A stretch of DNA of 64,000 nucleotides, taken from assembly GCA_965202585.1 (NCBI GenBank), contig OZ241832.1, positions 55,366,001-55,430,000 on the forward strand. Direction: 5' to 3'. The position numbers were made by a program. This DNA comes from Thalia democratica (Eukaryota). Shown piece by piece: positions 12,001-45,000 of the stretch (the stretch's first letter is position 1; the number at the start of each line of letters is the position of its first letter).

Positions 12001-15000
12001 TCAAATAACTACGTGTTTTAATTGATTTCATGGTCAAGTTTTACATTTCAATCTATTTACATAATTTTTATTTTTTAATTGACAAAAAAAAATTCAACTT
12101 TTTTGTAGACGGGTTTTAGTGTGTAAGAAAATAAAACTCAAATTTAAACTGCAGGCTATGCAGAACCTGTTTAGATTCGGTTTTAATATCTGTTTGCATA
12201 GTTTTTACTATAGATTTAAATAACGTTGACTTTTAAAGGGTGTTTAACAACTACAAATTTCTTTCTTTTAGATATTTATATAGTGCAGTAAGAATATTAC
12301 TCAAAACTATTTATACGACAGTTTCTAATATATGATAATATTTTATATTAGTGTTTCCACTTAGTACTTTATTTAAAGGTGTAATCTAAAACACAACTAA
12401 TATTCTTGTATGCAGGCATATAAAAATAATGCAGAATAATTCTTAATATTTAAGTTTACAAAATACAAAACTTTTTATTTTCCAGAAATAAATATCACAA
12501 TCAATTATATCTTTCTTTTCGAGTCATAAGATGTTAACAATCGCTATATAAAAACAATTTGGAATATTATTTTATTTTAGGATCATATTTCTAGCATATA
12601 TAAAGTTTAATCGTTAATATATAGCAGAACATTGTTTATTAGTCTACACTTAACAGTTTCTATGACATCAGCCGATTCAACTACGTAATTTGTCAGTATT
12701 AATACGTTTTGCATTTTTAATCAATCTTTCAAGCAAATATTATTCAAGCAGTATACTTGACCGTATAATTAAAGTCTATTATTGACCATTTTATTTATTA
12801 TGTTTTGAATAACATACTAAGAGATTAAAAGAACTACCTTAAAATATTTTAAGTTGAAATTAACAAGCTTAAGTTTTTAAAGTTTATATCAATTAATTTT
12901 TAATAAGCCAGTAATAAAATGAGTATAAAACTATAAAGAAATTTTCGTAGCTATTTGTTTGTTGAAGTTTTTTAGTTATGTTACTATGAAAACATGTATC
13001 AAACGACGTATTCTGTATGGGTACTACGTATTTAGGTTGTTATGTATGTAATAAATTTACAACTAAAATACAACGAGTTCTTACGTATGTAATAAAAACA
13101 TGTTATGATATTTGGGTGCATCAACGTTTATAAAAAGTTCCATGAACTCCAAAAAAAAATTCAAAGAAATTTACAGTTAAATATTCATGTATTTTTTTAT
13201 ACCCATTTGTTACTAGTGTTATTCAAGCAAAAAAACACAGTTTTCAAAATAATTGTTAAATTAAGCTCTTACATATGTAAGTGAGTATAATTTTTCTAAT
13301 TACAAAACATGATCTACTGTCAGGTGTAAAAAAGCCTTTAATGTATATAACATTACTTTATAAACCTTTGTAAACAAAATAATTTCTAACAAACTATTTT
13401 AATATTCTAGTTTTCAGAAAAGTGTTATGAAAAGAAGTAAATTTCTTTAAGCTTATTAAAAATCACTTTTTTTAATGTACTTGGACATTAAATCTTACAT
13501 TTAATAAAAAGTATAGACTAGTACTTAGACGTTTTTCTGAGTAATTATTGTTCGTTTAATTAGATAAACAAGTACATATTTTTTGATGTCAAAAAAATTA
13601 CAGGTCATGAGTTACGTCTTCAATTAAAAAATACATAGAAGTTGCTGATTGTTAATAATCAAATTTCTGTGTATTGTTTGTTTTTAAATGTCAAATAAAG
13701 CATATGTTTTTTATTATAATGACATATTAATTTGAAACAGTATGTTCATATTTTAACTATGAATAAATTGTTTGTGAATATATAGAAAAAATATTTTTTC
13801 TAAAATCAAGCATTTATGCGTTATTACGTTTTAATTTTTTAATATTTTTAAAGTTTTATAAAGCTCATAACAACAATTTTTTTTTAATTTATAGAAAAAT
13901 GTTTAAAAAACGTTTTCTAAAATCAGTTTAAATATTTTAAATAGTTTATATTTACGCTTAAACTGCAAAAAATTACACCTCGTGAGATATTCCACTTGAA
14001 TATTTTGTTTAAAAATATTTCTAATGACAAAAAATTGCCTTCAGTTTACGTCTATATATAAAGTGATAAGTAAACGCATTTGTTTAAAAAGTAGCAACGA
14101 TAGTTGCTTTCAAGTTTCTGACTACGTCTATAACACTAAAAATAATACTGTACTGAATTATTTTATAACCATTAAGTTAAATATATCATTAACGTAGATA
14201 TTATTCATTAAATTTTAATTTCATATATAGTTTGTTTTATATAAATTTTGCTTGTAATAATTAAAATCTTTATATAATTTATTGATATCTAAAAGTACAA
14301 TTTGTAGAAGTTAAACACAACACAATAACAAAACTTTTAATTTTAATTAAATTATACTTTATCTGTTTTTTTTTAAGTATTGTGTTTATGATTAATATTA
14401 AAAATGAGTATTGTTTCAATTTTTGACTTTTTGTAACTAAATATGTAATATATTTTTAGTTTTTTATAACTCAATTCTGTCTTTTTTACAATTCCGAATA
14501 AGTTTTTATTTATTTGCTATCCTTTTAAAAGTTTCTATAAGAATTTTTAAAGCTTTTATTTGAATTTTTTAAAACTATTTATAGTATAGCAAGGTAATTT
14601 TTTAATATCAAATTATAGTTTTATGTTTAGTTAGTGCTTTCTTAATCATTAAAAAGTAAGTGAGTTTTTATTCTAAAATTATAGTTTCTCAATTACGTAT
14701 ATTACAAACAATAAGTTAATTATAGTTTTTTAAAAATACACTTCTAATAACAAATACAAATGTTTCTGAAAACACAACGGTCTATTTTGCAAGATTTAAA
14801 GAACTTAAATCAAGTTGTAACTTAATAAAAGCAATATTAGTAATTCGTTCTACTTTATATTAAACAGAGATAGAAAAAATACAGCATACTGTTTAAATTT
14901 AGCTAAAACCTTATAAAAAAAAAAACTATTAAAATCATCCAAGATTTTCAAGCCATCGATTGAAGTTCTGTTTTGTTTTCATCAATGTCATCATTTTCTT

Positions 15001-42000: not shown

Positions 42001-45000
42001 AACTGTAGTAGTACGGGAGTGTAATATAGTAGTACTGTTACTAATTAGTATAATGTTATTGGTAGACCTTATAAGAATTCTATCATCAGATTTAACAAGC
42101 GTTTTTATTTTGTTAACTAAACTGAACTCATAGACCTGTACAAGGATGTCTTGTAAGCCTCTGAAAAAATTTATGACTTTCTGTTATTGCTTTAGAGTTT
42201 TTACATGAACAAATGAAATTAAACCTTATACATCATCTTTAAGTTAATAAATTAAGCTAGCGTATCTATAAAACTTTAGCAAAAATTGCATAATAATACT
42301 CAATATAAATAAAAAAAAACAGTTAAAGATCGATTTGTAACAAAGTCACAACTTGTTTTATTTCGCAAAAATATACAACGAGTACTTTTTAATATGGTTA
42401 ACAAATTTTGCAAGTAAAAGCTTACACAAAATGAGTTAGACGCATAAGATAAGTTCAGCCGAAGTGTTACGCTAAACTAAGTCATCTGTTTATTGTTTTT
42501 TTTTCGGATTCTTATTCAAATTATCTATTTAATTTAATCACCTCAATAGCTCCAACTAACGGTAAATCTTGAAATTATGTTTTAAGTATCACAATGCAAA
42601 AATCAAAAGTTTATCGACTTGACTTTGTTTTTATTTATAAAGTTTTTTTGTTAAAATACCGTAGTATAATAAATATCTGAAAATTTAGTTTTAATCTATC
42701 GTTGAAAATGTAAACAGTTGCAAATATAGCAAAAAGCTTAAACTAAATTTAATGATTGAAACAGACGTAACACTAACGAAAATAATCTATATTTTATCTT
42801 TAAATATGACAACTTAACTTAATCTGTTTAAAATTTGTAAATCAAAAATACACAAATTTATTAAAATAATTTCTAATATTTTACAAGTTTTTTGTTACAG
42901 TGCGAAGAAAATGATGACATTGATGAAAACAAAACAGAACTTCAATCGATGGCTTGAAAATCTTGGATGATTTTAATTTTTTTTTTTATAAGGTTTTAGC
43001 TAAATTTAAACAGTATGCTGTATTTTGTCTATCTCTGTTTAATATAAAGTAGAACGAATTACTAATATTTCTTTTATTAAGTTACAACTTACTTTAAATT
43101 CTTTTAATCTTGCAAAATAGACCGTTGTGTTTTCAGAAACATTTTTATTTGTTATTAAAAGTGTATTTTTAAAAAACTATAATTAACTTATTGTTTCTAA
43201 TATACGTAATTGAGAAACTATAATTTTAGAATAAAAACTCACTTACTTTTTAATGATTAAGAAAGCACTAACTAAACATAAAATTATAATTTGATATTAA
43301 AAAATTACCTTGCTATACTATAAATAGTTTTGAAAAATTCAAATAAAAACTTTAAAAATTCTTATAGAAACTTTTAAAAGGATAGCAAATAAATAAAAAC
43401 TTATTCGGAATTGTAATAAAGACGGAATTAAGTTATAACAAACTAAAAATATATTACACATTTAGTTACAAAAAGTCAAAAATTGAAACAATACTCATTT
43501 TTAATATTAATCATAAACACAATACTTAAAAAAAAAAACAGTTAAAGTATAATTTAATTAAAATTAAAAGTTTTGTTGTTGTGTTGTGTTTAACTTCTAC
43601 AAATTTTTCTTTTAGATATCAATGAATTATATAAAGATTTTAATTATTACAAGCAAAATTTATATAAAACAAACTATATATGAAATTAAAATTTAATGAG
43701 TAATATCTACGTTAAGGATATATTTAACTTAATGGTTATAAAATAATTTAGTACAGTATTATTTTTAGTTTTATAGACGTAGTCTGAAACTTGAAAGCAA
43801 CTATCGTTGTTACTTTTTAAACAAATGCTTTTACTTATCACTTTATATATAGACGTAAACTTAAGGCAATTTTTTGTCATTAGAAATATTTTTAAACAAA
43901 ATACTCAAGTGGAATTTCTCACGAGGTGGATTTTTTTTTAGTTTAAGCGTAAATATAAACTATTTAAAATGTTTAAACTGGTTTTAGAAAACGTTTTTTA
44001 AACTTTTTTTCTATAAATTAAAAAAAAATTGTTGTTATGAGCTTTTTAAAACTTTAAAAATATTAAAAATTAAAACATAATAACGCATAAATGCTTGAAT
44101 TTATAAAAAATAATATTTTTTCTATATATTCAAAAACAATTATTTATAGTTAAAATATGAACATACTGTTTCAAATTGATATGTCATTATAATAAAAAAC
44201 ATATGCTTTATTTGACATTTAAAAACAAACAATACACAGAAATTTGATTATTAACAATCAGCAACTTCTAGGTATTTTTTAATTGACGACGTAACTCATG
44301 ACCTGTAAACTTTTTGACATCAAAAAATATGTACTTGTTTATCTAATTAAACGAACAATAATTACTCAGAAAAACGTCTAAGTACTAGTCTATACTTTTT
44401 ATTAAATATAAAATTAAATGCCTAAGTACATTATAAAAATTGATTTTTAATAAGCTTAAAGAAATTTACTTCTTTTCATAACACTTTTCTGAAAACTAGA
44501 ATATCATAATAGTTTGTTAGAAATTATTTTGCTTACAAAGGTTTTTAACGTAATGTTATTTACAATGGTTCATTAAAGGTTTTTCACACCTGACAGTAGA
44601 TCATGTATTGTACTTGAACAAAAAGTTATAGTCACATACAATGTAATCAATTAAATAAACAATTATTTTAAAAATGTATTTTTTCTACTTGAATAACACT
44701 TGAAATAAATTGGTATAAAAAATATATAAATACCTAATTGTAAATTTCATTTGAATTTTTTTCTGCAATTCATGGAAATTTTTATAAACTTTGATGCACC
44801 CAAATATCATAAACATGTTTTTATTACATACGTAAGAACTCGTTGTTTTTTAGTTGTAAATTTATTTATACAGAATACGACGTTTGACACATGTTTTCAT
44901 AGTAATATAACTTAAAAACATCAATAAACAAATAGCTATTAAAAGTTCTTTATAGTTCTTTACTAATTCTATTACTAGCTTATTAAAAAATAATTGATAA

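What the first reader, a model, noticed from the sequence alone, without database searches (positions are those of the whole stretch)
14948..42957. Coding exons almost identical between arms while introns and flanks are patchily diverged
Seen: only 7 differences in 1,320 coding nt (3 synonymous); exons 4, 5, 6, 8, 9 and 10 are identical, including third positions. By eye, intron 6 (18.1-20.4 vs 37.4-39.8 kb) and outer blocks (e.g. 13.2-13.35 kb vs 44.5-44.7 kb; 11.7-12.1 vs 45.8-46.1 kb) have many substitutions and indels (roughly 75-90% identity), while 15.7-16.3 kb and 28.2-29.2 kb are ~97-98% identical. Inference: purifying selection alone should not freeze synonymous sites, so this suggests ongoing patchy arm-to-arm gene conversion, possibly focused on exons.
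Basis: partly seen in the sequence, partly recalled or inferred. Interest (0 to 1): 0.65.

Follow-up and report, generated by a model that had tools for sequence, protein, structure and literature searches.

The report
Mirror-image Rh genes kept alike
Two head-to-head copies of an Rh-type ammonium transporter gene have almost identical exons but patchily diverged introns, a textbook-style footprint of copy-to-copy gene conversion rather than a new kind of system.

Summary
The window holds an inverted duplication: left arm 11323-24916 plus 28219-29248, right arm 46575-32316, 3.07-kb spacer. Each arm carries an intact 10-exon Rh-type ammonium transporter gene, and the two genes lie head to head.

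- **Coding differences:** 7 of 1,320 coding nt differ, 3 synonymous and 4 not. Exons 4, 5, 6, 8, 9 and 10 are identical.
- **Synonymous versus intron divergence:** 1.0% (3/293 sites) against 7.0% in introns (531/7572), Fisher p=2.6e-6.
- **Mosaic:** noncoding divergence is two-state, about 2.5% and 15.6%. All exons lie in low-divergence segments.
- **Identical runs:** each of the seven longest (167-333 nt) holds an exon.
- **Where the contrast sits:** exons 4-7 carry it (0 of 140 synonymous sites against 8.8% in flanks, p=1.3e-5). Exons 2-3 and 8-10 simply sit in long low-divergence blocks.
- **Codon usage:** unbiased (ENC 58.5), so synonymous constraint is an unlikely cause.

Best reading: homology-limited arm-to-arm gene conversion with exons as homology islands, as in the Drosophila Amy pair. 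"Ongoing" conversion and its timing could not be tested, because no orthologous DNA was reachable. This is an ordinary new member of a known kind.

The parts
11323..24916 (.). Left arm, outer/main segment of the inverted repeat (pairs with 46575-33318)
   Evidence: Self-BLAST minus-strand hits. MAFFT alignment: 12,279 matches, 813 substitutions and 668 gap columns.
24917..28218 (.). 3,302-bp hAT-like transposon remnant present only in the left arm, 621 nt upstream of the left copy's ATG
   Evidence: 8-bp duplication ATATAGGC at 24909-24916 and 28219-28226, 14-nt terminal inverted repeat, and an empty site in the right arm. Weak hAT dimerisation-domain match for ORF 27292-27633, E=0.013 and below the curated cut-off.
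28219..29248 (.). Left arm, inner segment (pairs with 33325-32316)
   Evidence: 965 matches, 45 substitutions and 20 gap columns.
29249..32315 (.). Unique spacer between the arms (3,067 nt)
   Evidence: No mirror match in self-BLAST. No ORF of 70 aa or more.
32316..46575 (.). Right arm of the inverted repeat
24291..24295 (-). Left copy, exon 1 coding part (ATG plus 2 nt); lies in a 167-nt identical run, 24231-24397
   Evidence: Motif search gives mirrored hits at 24289-24295 (-) and 33939-33945 (+). GT donor present. Run listed.
23353..23516 (-). Left copy, exon 2 (164 nt); 5 differences from the right copy
23428..23450 (-). 23-nt cluster holding 5 of the 7 coding differences (I/V, V/M, D/Y plus 2 synonymous); right-arm partner 34619-34641
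   Evidence: None of 200,000 random placements put 5 of 7 differences within 23 nt.
22448..22637 (-). Left copy, exon 3 (190 nt); 1 synonymous difference
   Evidence: best solved-structure match RhCG, E=1.5e-14.
21861..22011 (-). Left copy, exon 4 (151 nt); identical to the right copy
   Evidence: identical run 21844-22050.
21113..21257 (-). Left copy, exon 5 (145 nt); identical
   Evidence: identical run 21102-21296.
20484..20647 (-). Left copy, exon 6 (164 nt); identical
   Evidence: identical run 20464-20655.
17943..18080 (-). Left copy, exon 7 (138 nt); 1 nonsynonymous difference (T/A)
16921..17054 (-). Left copy, exon 8 (134 nt); identical
   Evidence: identical run 16729-17061.
16538..16709 (-). 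Left copy, exon 9 (172 nt); identical
   Evidence: identical run 16491-16727.
14948..15004 (-). Left copy, exon 10 coding part (57 nt, including stop TGA at 14950-14948); identical
33939..33943 (+). Right copy, exon 1 coding part
34553..34716 (+). Right copy, exon 2
35179..35368 (+). Right copy, exon 3
35832..35982 (+). Right copy, exon 4
36582..36726 (+). Right copy, exon 5
37198..37361 (+). Right copy, exon 6
39805..39942 (+). Right copy, exon 7
40857..40990 (+). Right copy, exon 8
41202..41373 (+). Right copy, exon 9
42901..42957 (+). Right copy, exon 10 coding part, including the stop
18085..20153 (.). Intron 6, mostly high-divergence: HMM high segments 18085-18292, 18596-18761 and 18957-20153 at 12.5-14.7%; starts 5 nt from exon 7
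   Evidence: the whole intron has 264 substitutions in 2,391 aligned sites.
20722..21101 (.). High-divergence segment in intron 5 (55/378 = 14.6%); ends 11 nt from exon 5
22071..22327 (.). High-divergence segment in intron 3 (50/257 = 19.5%)
15350..18084 (.). Longest low-divergence block (53/2731 = 1.9%); holds exons 7-9 and introns 7, 8 and part of 9
   Evidence: intron 8 differs at only 1 of 211 sites.

Best explanation
An old inverted duplication placed two copies of an Rh-type ammonium transporter gene head to head, with their ATG codons about 9.6 kb apart. The copies have since been partly re-homogenised by arm-to-arm (interlocus) gene conversion at the DNA level.

Conversion needs near-identical DNA. 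Stretches that drift too far apart therefore escape for good and keep diverging; these are now the ~15% segments. Stretches that stay alike keep being converted; these are the ~2-5% noncoding blocks.

About three quarters of exon sites are held by purifying selection. Exons therefore never leave the convertible state and act as homology islands. Their synonymous sites are carried along and stay about 0-1% diverged, even where both neighbouring introns have escaped (exons 4-7).

The island edges erode inward until they reach selected sequence, that is, the splice signals and exon ends. This gives sharp edges.

Shown here:
- the inverted structure and two intact genes
- the two-state mosaic
- the deficit of synonymous differences
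- the lack of codon bias
- the lack of a long divergence gradient next to exons

Inferred:
- that conversion is the homogenising process
- that it is limited by homology
- the order of events
For: - **Structure.** Inverted arms with a 3.07-kb spacer and unique flanks on both sides.
- **Both genes intact.** GT..AG at every one of 9 introns in both copies, and none of the 7 differences makes a stop.
- **Synonymous deficit.**
  - pS = 3/292.7 = 1.0% against 531/7572 = 7.0% in introns, p=2.6e-6.
  - Fourfold sites: 1/199 differ, and none of 7,894 shifts gave 1 or fewer.
  - Against flanks 21-100 nt from exons (89/1590): p=1.9e-4.
- **Conversion also explains noncoding sequence.** 8,258 noncoding aligned sites are only 3.4% diverged, while 3,514 sites are 14.9% diverged. 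GC content is the same in both (0.235 against 0.232). The substitution spectra are not significantly different (chi-square p=0.08).
- **Two-state model.** Preferred over one state: BIC 5755.0 against 6102.6.
- **Exons and identity.** All 10 exons lie in low-divergence segments. The 7 longest identical runs each contain an exon.
- **DNA-level tracts.** Some homogenised tracts include introns: intron 8 differs at 1/211 sites and intron 2 at 7/456.
- **Synonymous sites are not intrinsically frozen.** A 23-nt patch in exon 2 carries 2 synonymous and 3 nonsynonymous differences, and none of 200,000 random placements gave such a cluster.
- **No codon bias.** ENC 58.5 against 60.5 expected. GC3 is 0.51-0.54, and in four neighbouring ORFs it is 0.29-0.54.
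Against: - There is no outgroup and no population sample. Conversion is inferred from the pattern within a single genome, and neither its direction, its timing nor whether it is ongoing is shown.
- For exons 8-10 and 2-3, synonymous divergence does not differ from the adjacent introns (p=0.38 and p=1.0).
- There is almost no gradient of divergence with distance from exons. It is 7.5% at 21-40 nt and 4.8-8.1% in the bins from 41 to 500 nt. A naive model with random tract ends predicts a gradient, so the homology-limited version is needed to explain its absence.
- Even within low-divergence sequence, synonymous sites (3/293) are about 3-fold less diverged than noncoding sites (284/8258), p=0.019. 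Some synonymous constraint or a lower exon mutation rate may therefore contribute.
- Indel events per substitution differ 2-fold between low and high segments (0.141 against 0.069, p=0.004). A pure "same process, different elapsed time" model does not predict this, although alignment in diverged stretches may hide indels.
- Indels end identical tracts only weakly more often than expected. They are the first difference at 5 of 20 exon edges against 8.5% background (p=0.024), and at 2 of 14 ends of the seven longest runs (p=0.34).
- Converted noncoding blocks show no GC enrichment, so there is no sign of GC-biased conversion.
Confidence: 0.7

Rival explanations
1. A young duplication with hot patches. 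The arms duplicated recently and neutral divergence is about 3%. The 12-25% segments are local mutational hot spots, or stretches overwritten from diverged repeats elsewhere in the genome. No arm-to-arm conversion is needed. Exon identity reflects youth plus purifying selection.
For: - 70% of aligned noncoding sites sit at 3.4% divergence.
- High-divergence segments are short (57-1,188 nt) and contain runs of adjacent mismatches next to indels.
- Against the low-divergence background, the synonymous deficit is only about 3-fold, p=0.019.
- The indel-to-substitution ratio differs between the two states, p=0.004.
Against: - High and low segments have the same GC content (0.232 against 0.235). 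Their substitution spectra are not significantly different (p=0.08). Nothing therefore marks the high segments as a different kind of sequence.
- High segments match only their mirror partner within the window, apart from one 35-nt match. That gives no sign of dispersed-repeat donors, though only 64 kb could be searched.
- Exons 4-6 show 0 differences at 105 synonymous sites. The noncoding part of their own low-divergence segments is about 5% diverged by my arithmetic, which would give about 5 expected differences.
Confidence: 0.12
2. Selection alone. The duplicates are old and were never converted. Exons, synonymous sites included, are identical because of very strong constraint from codon usage, splicing enhancers or RNA structure.
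For: - Identity ends within 3-39 nt upstream and 10-60 nt downstream of most exons (192 nt for exon 8), which looks like a selection footprint.
- Exon GC3 (0.51-0.54) is far above intron GC (0.22-0.26).
Against: - Codon usage is almost uniform: ENC 58.5 against 60.5 expected.
- By my calculation, a fixation bias large enough to hold GC3 at 0.53 against a 0.22 mutational equilibrium would not lower the synonymous substitution rate.
- This reading cannot explain about 8.3 kb of intron and flank sequence at 3.4% divergence, or intron 8 at 1/211.
- The 23-nt patch in exon 2 shows that synonymous sites can differ.
Confidence: 0.08
3. Exon-precise homogenisation through a spliced RNA or cDNA template, that is, RNA-templated repair or cDNA-mediated conversion. 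This would copy exons and leave introns untouched.
For: - Exons 4-7 are islands of identity with edges at or near the splice sites, while introns 3, 5 and 6 are 11-12.5% diverged.
- There is no long gradient of divergence into introns.
- Recombination or conversion of genes with their own mRNA through reverse transcriptase has been proposed for yeasts (a sentence and references in PMC5470649; the cited Pyne et al. 2005 paper was not held).
Against: - Both copies keep all 9 introns, whereas cDNA-mediated exchange usually deletes introns (general knowledge).
- Several homogenised tracts include intron DNA. Intron 8 differs at 1/211 sites, the identical run 16729-17061 extends 192 nt past exon 8, and intron 2 differs at 7/456.
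- The 300 nt downstream of the stop codon, which is the likely 3' UTR, is no more alike than its surroundings. By my count from the string it has about 11 substitutions and one indel.
Confidence: 0.05
4. Assembly artefact. Two haplotypes of a single-copy locus, or a chimeric hairpin read, were joined into a false palindrome.
For: - The best named relative across all exons is a tunicate Rh protein, at 234/433 identical residues. Some tunicates are known, from recall, to be highly heterozygous.
- No read data were available to check the assembly.
Against: - A unique 3.07-kb spacer separates the arms, and different unique genes flank each side: ORFs at 5090-6263 on one side, and PLA2- and Kelch-like ORFs at 50-53 kb on the other.
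- A transposon with a target-site duplication is present in one arm only.
- Tandem-repeat copy number differs between the arms.
- Alleles would show synonymous diversity similar to intron diversity, which is not seen.
Confidence: 0.05

Closest known systems
[quoted passage not shown]
   Same: These are closely linked inverted paralogues whose coding sequence is homogenised, silent sites included, while neighbouring noncoding sequence evolves independently. The pattern is attributed to ectopic gene conversion interacting with purifying selection (PMC3924832, passages read). In this window, pS is 1.0% against 7.0% in introns.
   Different: - This gene has 9 introns, so the contrast appears as separate exon-sized islands (exons 4-7) inside one gene rather than as coding region against flank.
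- Large noncoding blocks are homogenised too.
- The phylogenetic proof available for Amy, paralogues more alike than orthologues, could not be obtained here.
Large sex-chromosome palindromes with arm-to-arm gene conversion
   Same: Inverted arms around a short unique spacer carrying paired genes, with arm-to-arm conversion invoked to keep the copies alike.
   Different: In those palindromes the arms are nearly identical throughout, noncoding DNA included. Here the arms are only 93.8% identical at aligned sites and 89.2% counting gaps, with 27% of aligned columns in a ~15% state. Homogenisation here is partial and decaying.
Human RHD/RHCE paralogue pair under conversion and selection (only the reference to Innan 2003 was seen, in the reference list of PMC3924837; details recalled)
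   Same: Duplicated genes of the same protein family (Rh) that exchange sequence by gene conversion.
   Different: That is an independent vertebrate duplication of a different Rh subfamily member. This window is not vertebrate-like: GC is 21-30% and the best named match is a tunicate Rh protein at 54%. No homology between the duplication events is implied.
Yeast ribosomal-protein duplicates: coding regions converted, noncoding regulatory regions not
   Same: Conversion signatures in coding sequence, with little in the adjacent noncoding DNA (PMC3924837, passage read).
   Different: Those are dispersed duplicates from a whole-genome duplication, highly expressed and with few introns. An mRNA or cDNA route has been discussed for yeasts (PMC5470649). 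Here, intron-containing tracts argue for DNA-level exchange.

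Membership tests
Rh-type ammonium transporter (Pfam PF00909 Ammonium_transp, Rh branch) | Sequence matches the Ammonium_transp profile along the protein | tested here: met
   exon by exon. 5 of 8 exon ORFs match PF00909. Four are above the 23.2-bit cut-off: exons 5, 6, 7 and 8 at 38.3, 40.3, 31.2 and 36.8 bits. Exon 3 scores 15.4 bits, below the cut-off. Exons 2, 4 and 9 gave no PF00909 match. The matched profile positions run in order from 37 to 329 of 399.
Rh-type ammonium transporter (Pfam PF00909 Ammonium_transp, Rh branch) | Closest characterised relatives are Rh proteins rather than Amt/Mep proteins | tested here: met
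   Best solved-structure matches are RhAG and RhCG for exon 6 (E=2.1e-11 and 7.3e-11) and RhCG and RhAG for exon 3 (E=1.5e-14 and 8.4e-11). Named database relatives are Rh type A/B proteins.
Rh-type ammonium transporter (Pfam PF00909 Ammonium_transp, Rh branch) | Complete, uninterrupted coding sequence of normal length in both copies | tested here: met
   The 439-aa relative P0001 aligns over residues 2-439 in nine blocks in each arm. Exon 1 supplies the ATG. All splice sites are GT..AG in both copies. Identity of the left copy to P0001 is 421/433 residues, counted exon by exon.
Rh-type ammonium transporter (Pfam PF00909 Ammonium_transp, Rh branch) | Ammonia/ammonium transport activity and expression of both copies | not testable with these tools
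   No expression or functional data. No database protein was identical to either copy; the best was 92% over exon 6.
Concerted evolution of linked inverted paralogues by interlocus gene conversion (Amy/Hsp70 type) | Two paralogues in inverted orientation, close together on one chromosome | tested here: met
   the ATG codons lie at 24295 (-) and 33939 (+).
Concerted evolution of linked inverted paralogues by interlocus gene conversion (Amy/Hsp70 type) | Silent sites of the coding sequence much less diverged than neighbouring noncoding DNA | tested here: met
   3/292.7 synonymous sites against 531/7572 intron sites, p=2.6e-6. Exons 4-7: 0/140.3 against 70/794, p=1.3e-5. Not significant for exons 8-10 or 2-3.
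Concerted evolution of linked inverted paralogues by interlocus gene conversion (Amy/Hsp70 type) | Identity tracts longer than independent evolution allows (GENECONV-type test) | tested here: met
   Seven identical runs of 150 nt or more against a mean of 0.024 in 5,000 permutations; the null maximum run has a 95th percentile of 139 nt. The two-state HMM is preferred by 348 BIC units. With only two sequences this shows heterogeneity, not transfer as such.
Concerted evolution of linked inverted paralogues by interlocus gene conversion (Amy/Hsp70 type) | Paralogues within the species more alike than orthologues between species, although the duplication predates the species split | not testable with these tools
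   No eukaryotic genome DNA collection was available.
Concerted evolution of linked inverted paralogues by interlocus gene conversion (Amy/Hsp70 type) | Polymorphisms shared between the two loci in a population | not testable with these tools
   Only a single sequence is available.
Fully homogenised large palindrome (primate Y type) | Arm-to-arm identity near 100% across coding and noncoding DNA alike | tested here: not met
   93.8% at aligned sites and 89.2% counting gaps over 13.6 kb. 3,514 of 13,092 aligned columns are in a 14.9% state.
RNA/cDNA-mediated gene conversion | Homogenisation limited to spliced exons, with introns untouched or lost | tested here: not met
   All 9 introns are kept in both copies. 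Intron 8 differs at 1/211 sites and intron 2 at 7/456, so both are homogenised too. One identical run extends 192 nt into intron 8.

The most novel reading that the evidence does not exclude
The four mid-gene exons (4-7) are kept identical, edge to edge, by repair templated on spliced transcripts of the sister copy. This would be RNA-templated or cDNA-patch conversion that does not delete introns. It would act on top of ordinary DNA-level conversion elsewhere in the arms, and would explain why divergence is already about 5-9% within 21-120 nt of these exons, with no gradient.
Probability: 0.05. Interest if true: 0.8.

Novelty: new member of a known kind. Interest (0 to 1): 0.3.

Why it matters
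This is a clean single-locus picture of a duplicate gene pair partly escaping concerted evolution. It shows three tiers of divergence: exons at about 0-1% at silent sites, still-convertible noncoding blocks at 2-5%, and escaped noncoding segments at 12-25%.

It illustrates how purifying selection on amino-acid sites can indirectly keep silent sites identical, by keeping exons eligible for conversion. It also warns that dS would badly underestimate the age of this duplication.

For annotation, it shows that the two Rh genes are both intact and differ by only 4 amino acids. Three of those lie in a 23-nt patch of exon 2, which is a candidate site of functional divergence or a conversion boundary.

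It does not open a new question, because the phenomenon is well described in Drosophila, yeast and mammals.

Tried and rejected
- **First global alignment.** It mis-placed the inner arm because of the 3.3-kb left-arm insertion. I replaced it with two anchored segments.
- **Three-state HMM.** Its BIC (5769.2) was worse than the two-state model (5755.0), so I did not use it.
- **GC-biased conversion.** I looked for it in noncoding blocks and found none: GC 0.235 against 0.232.
- **Indels as tract barriers.** The evidence is only weak: 5/20 exon edges (p=0.024) and 2/14 run ends (p=0.34).
- **Dispersed-repeat donors for the high-divergence patches.** None found within the window.
- **Rfam scan of the window.** No family reached its gathering score.
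- **Organism.**
  - The closest Rh relatives (P0001-P0016) and the only relative of a flanking ORF (P0121) are unnamed.
  - The best named relative across all exons is a Molgula (tunicate) Rh protein at 234/433. Branchiostoma scores 198/433 and arthropods about 174-180/433. The lineage is only a guess.
- **Pyne et al. 2005.** Not held.
- **One script call.** It returned no answer, so I re-ran it.
- **Searches on the gene.** I never joined the exons into a spliced model. Every search used a single exon or a single ORF. Codon counts were made exon by exon, leaving out the 5 codons split by introns.

Full report
**Structure.** The window is AT-rich, with GC 21-30% per 2 kb, and contains no N. I do not take it for human.
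- Self-BLAST finds one large inverted repeat. Left arm 11323-24916 pairs with 46575-33318, and 28219-29248 pairs with 33325-32316, around a unique spacer at 29249-32315.
- The 3,302 bp at 24917-28218 are present only in the left arm. They are bounded by an 8-bp duplication (ATATAGGC) and a 14-nt terminal inverted repeat, and the right arm shows the empty site.
- An ORF inside this insert has a weak hAT dimerisation-domain match, E=0.013 and below the curated cut-off. I read the insert as a hAT-like transposon remnant that arrived after the duplication.
- Both outer flanks are unique and carry other gene-like ORFs.

**The gene.**
- Stop-to-stop ORFs on the minus strand of the left arm match the Ammonium_transp family. 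5 of 8 exon ORFs match, 4 of them above the curated cut-off.
- The best solved-structure matches of exons 6 and 3 are RhAG and RhCG.
- A search with the exon 6 ORF found a 439-aa unnamed relative, P0001. It aligns in nine blocks in each arm over residues 2-439.
- Reading the splice sites, and finding the mirrored ATG-plus-donor motif at 24289-24295 (-) and 33939-33945 (+), gives 10 coding exons summing to 1,320 nt. GT..AG is present at all nine introns in both copies.
- The genes lie head to head.
- The left copy matches P0001 at 421 of 433 residues, counted exon by exon.
Each search used one exon or one ORF. Codon statistics were computed exon by exon, omitting the 5 codons that introns split.

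**Check of the observation.**
- Exactly 7 of 1,320 coding nt differ: 5 in exon 2, 1 in exon 3 and 1 in exon 7. Exons 4, 5, 6, 8, 9 and 10 are identical.
- Three differences are synonymous and four are not: I/V, V/M and D/Y in exon 2, and T/A in exon 7.
Intron 6 is 89.0% at aligned sites and 86.6% with gaps. 13200-13350 is 79% and 74%. 11700-12100 is 88% and 85%. 15700-16300 is 98.7%. 28219-29200 is 97.7% and 95.7%.

**Synonymous sites against noncoding sites.**
- Over 434 in-frame codons, S=292.7 and N=1009.3, giving pS=0.0103 and pN=0.0040. One fourfold-degenerate site differs: 1 of 197 when both copies must share the first two codon positions, or 1 of 199 counted on the left copy alone.
- Introns differ at 531 of 7,572 aligned sites (7.0%). 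By intron the values are: 1 7.1%, 2 1.5%, 3 12.3%, 4 5.2%, 5 12.5%, 6 11.0%, 7 3.4%, 8 0.5% and 9 2.9%. Fisher p=2.6e-6 for synonymous sites against introns.
- I moved the fourfold-site pattern by every circular shift that lands at least 90% on noncoding columns (7,894 shifts). The mean was 13.5 differences, no shift gave 1 or fewer, and 0.3% gave 3 or fewer.
- Against intron sequence only 21-100 nt from exon edges (89/1590 = 5.6%), the deficit holds, p=1.9e-4.
- The signal is not uniform. Exons 4-7 have 0 differences at 140.3 synonymous sites against 70/794 (8.8%) in their flanks, p=1.3e-5. Exons 8-10 (0/76.3 against 12/568, p=0.38) and exons 2-3 (3/76 against 19/399, p=1.0) cannot be told apart from their flanks.

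**The mosaic.**
- A two-state hidden Markov model on the 13,092 aligned columns, with rates of 2.45% and 15.6%, beats a one-state model by 348 BIC units. A third state does not help.
- Viterbi decoding gives 22 segments. Low-divergence segments total 9,578 columns with 291 substitutions, and high-divergence segments total 3,514 columns with 522.
- All ten exons lie in low-divergence segments.
- Five low/high boundaries fall within 75 nt of an exon edge. Examples are 18085, 5 nt from exon 7, and 21102, 11 nt from exon 5.
- The seven longest perfectly identical runs (167-333 nt) each contain an exon: 8, 9, 4, 5, 6, 3 and 1. In 5,000 permutations the longest run averaged 105 nt, with a 95th percentile of 139.
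- There are in effect three tiers:
  - silent exon sites at about 0-1%
  - low-divergence noncoding at 3.4% (284/8258)
  - high-divergence noncoding at 14.9% (522/3514)
- By my arithmetic, Jukes-Cantor correction makes these about 0.010, 0.035 and 0.166.

**Edges.**
- Intron divergence by distance from the nearest exon edge is 5/179 at 1-10 nt, 6/178 at 11-20 nt and 27/359 (7.5%) at 21-40 nt. It is then 4.8-8.1% out to 500 nt, and 187/1925 (9.7%) beyond 500 nt.
- Beyond the splice signals, therefore, there is almost no gradient.
- The first difference outward from an exon edge lies 3-39 nt upstream and 10-60 nt downstream, or 192 nt for exon 8.
- That first difference is an indel in 5 of 20 cases, against 8.5% of all differences (p=0.024). 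The ends of the seven longest runs are indels in only 2 of 14 cases (p=0.34). Indels as tract barriers are at best weakly supported.

**Why conversion rather than the rivals.**
- *Synonymous constraint:*
  - Codon usage is nearly uniform, ENC 58.5 against 60.5 expected from GC3.
  - In four neighbouring gene-like ORFs GC3 is 0.29-0.54, so a raised GC3 is not confined to the Rh pair.
  - Constraint cannot explain 8.3 kb of noncoding sequence at 3.4%, or intron 8 at 1/211.
  - Five of the seven coding differences, two of them synonymous, sit in one 23-nt patch of exon 2. None of 200,000 random placements gave such a cluster. Silent sites therefore do differ where homogenisation has not reached.
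- *Young duplication with hot patches:*
  - High and low noncoding segments have the same GC (0.232 against 0.235).
  - Their substitution spectra are not significantly different (p=0.08).
  - High segments match only their mirror partner within the window.
  - Against my reading, indel events per substitution are twice as frequent in low segments as in high ones (0.141 against 0.069, p=0.004).
  - Also against it, silent sites are still 3-fold below the low-divergence noncoding rate (p=0.019). Some constraint or a lower exon mutation rate may contribute.
- *Spliced-RNA template:*
  - All introns are retained.
  - Several homogenised tracts include intron DNA.
- *Assembly artefact:*
  - There is a unique spacer and there are unique flanks.
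  - There is a one-arm transposon with a target-site duplication.
  - Tandem-repeat copy number differs between the arms.
  - No reads were available to check this.

**Mechanism proposed (inference).** The duplication is old, at least about 0.17 substitutions per site. It has been followed by DNA-level arm-to-arm conversion whose success depends on local identity.
- Regions that drift beyond the tolerated mismatch density escape and keep diverging.
- Regions that stay alike keep being converted.
- Exons cannot escape, because selection holds most of their sites. Their silent sites are therefore homogenised along with the rest.
- Island edges erode inward until they meet selected splice signals, which yields sharp edges without a gradient.
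- The idea that conversion depends on sequence identity, and that purifying selection keeps identity high, is stated in the Drosophila review I read in passages (PMC3924832). The threshold and escape models (Walsh 1987; Teshima and Innan 2004) are recalled, not read.

**Comparison with what is known.**
- The closest case is the palindromic Amy-p/Amy-d pair of Drosophila, and the Hsp70 pairs, where concerted evolution is confined to coding sequence (PMC3924832, passages).
- Yeast ribosomal-protein duplicates show conversion in coding but not regulatory DNA (PMC3924837, passage).
- The opsin and RNase cases in the same review show the opposite pattern, with introns converted and exons divergent.
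- The locus is not a fully homogenised palindrome of the primate-Y type: arm identity is 93.8% at aligned sites.
- By coincidence the human RHD/RHCE genes are also a conversion-prone Rh pair. Only the reference was seen, and that duplication is independent of this one.

**What stayed unchecked.**
- Orthologous DNA.
- Population variation, read support, expression, and the identity of the organism.
- Paper supplements were not consulted and do not bear on the claims made here.

**Verdict.** The locus is a good but ordinary new example of partial concerted evolution of inverted paralogues.

Noticed in passing
window 24917-28218 (left arm only): A 3,302-bp hAT-like transposon remnant with the 8-bp target-site duplication ATATAGGC and a 14-nt terminal inverted repeat. 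The right arm has the empty site. It lies 621 nt upstream of the left Rh copy's ATG, so it may affect that copy's promoter.
   Followed up: partly
window 22836-23183 and 23880-24219 (left arm, introns 2 and 1): Tandem repeats expanded in the left arm only. An 86-nt unit is present in 4 copies, and the right arm lacks 258 nt there. A 164-nt unit is present in 2.1 copies, and the right arm lacks 163 nt. Both lie in otherwise low-divergence blocks.
   Followed up: partly
window 31782-32411: A 344-nt direct repeat in 1.8 copies, about 95-96% alike, straddling the inner end of the right arm at 32316. It may mark how the inner boundary of the palindrome formed.
   Followed up: no
window 5090-5494 and 5811-6263 (+): Two long GC-richer ORFs (135 and 151 aa) that look like exons of one gene. 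The second has a weak GNAT acetyltransferase match, E=0.016 and below the cut-off. It also has a single unnamed 273-aa relative, P0121, at 61% identity.
   Followed up: partly
window 50094-50327 (-) and 52855-53148 (+): Exon-like ORFs in the right flank. One has a phospholipase A2 match (E=4.3e-6, 27.6 bits, below the 32.1-bit cut-off). The other has a Kelch motif match (E=2.1e-5, 24.3 bits, above the 20.1-bit cut-off).
   Followed up: no
window 59665-61263: A satellite-like tandem array with a unit of about 269-270 nt in 5-6 copies. Some copy pairs are 98-99.6% alike.
   Followed up: no
whole window: The 7-mer ATGACGT occurs 15 times against 3.9 expected, and none of 100 shuffles reached 15. 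Four mirrored arm pairs (8 of the 15 matches), by my reading of the coordinates, explain part of the excess, and the cluster at 5265-5346 does not.
   Followed up: no
window 48075-48244 and 55864-56112: Short-unit tandem repeats. One is an 18-nt GC-richer unit in 9.7 copies inside overlapping ORFs. The other is a 15-nt unit in 16.9 copies.
   Followed up: no
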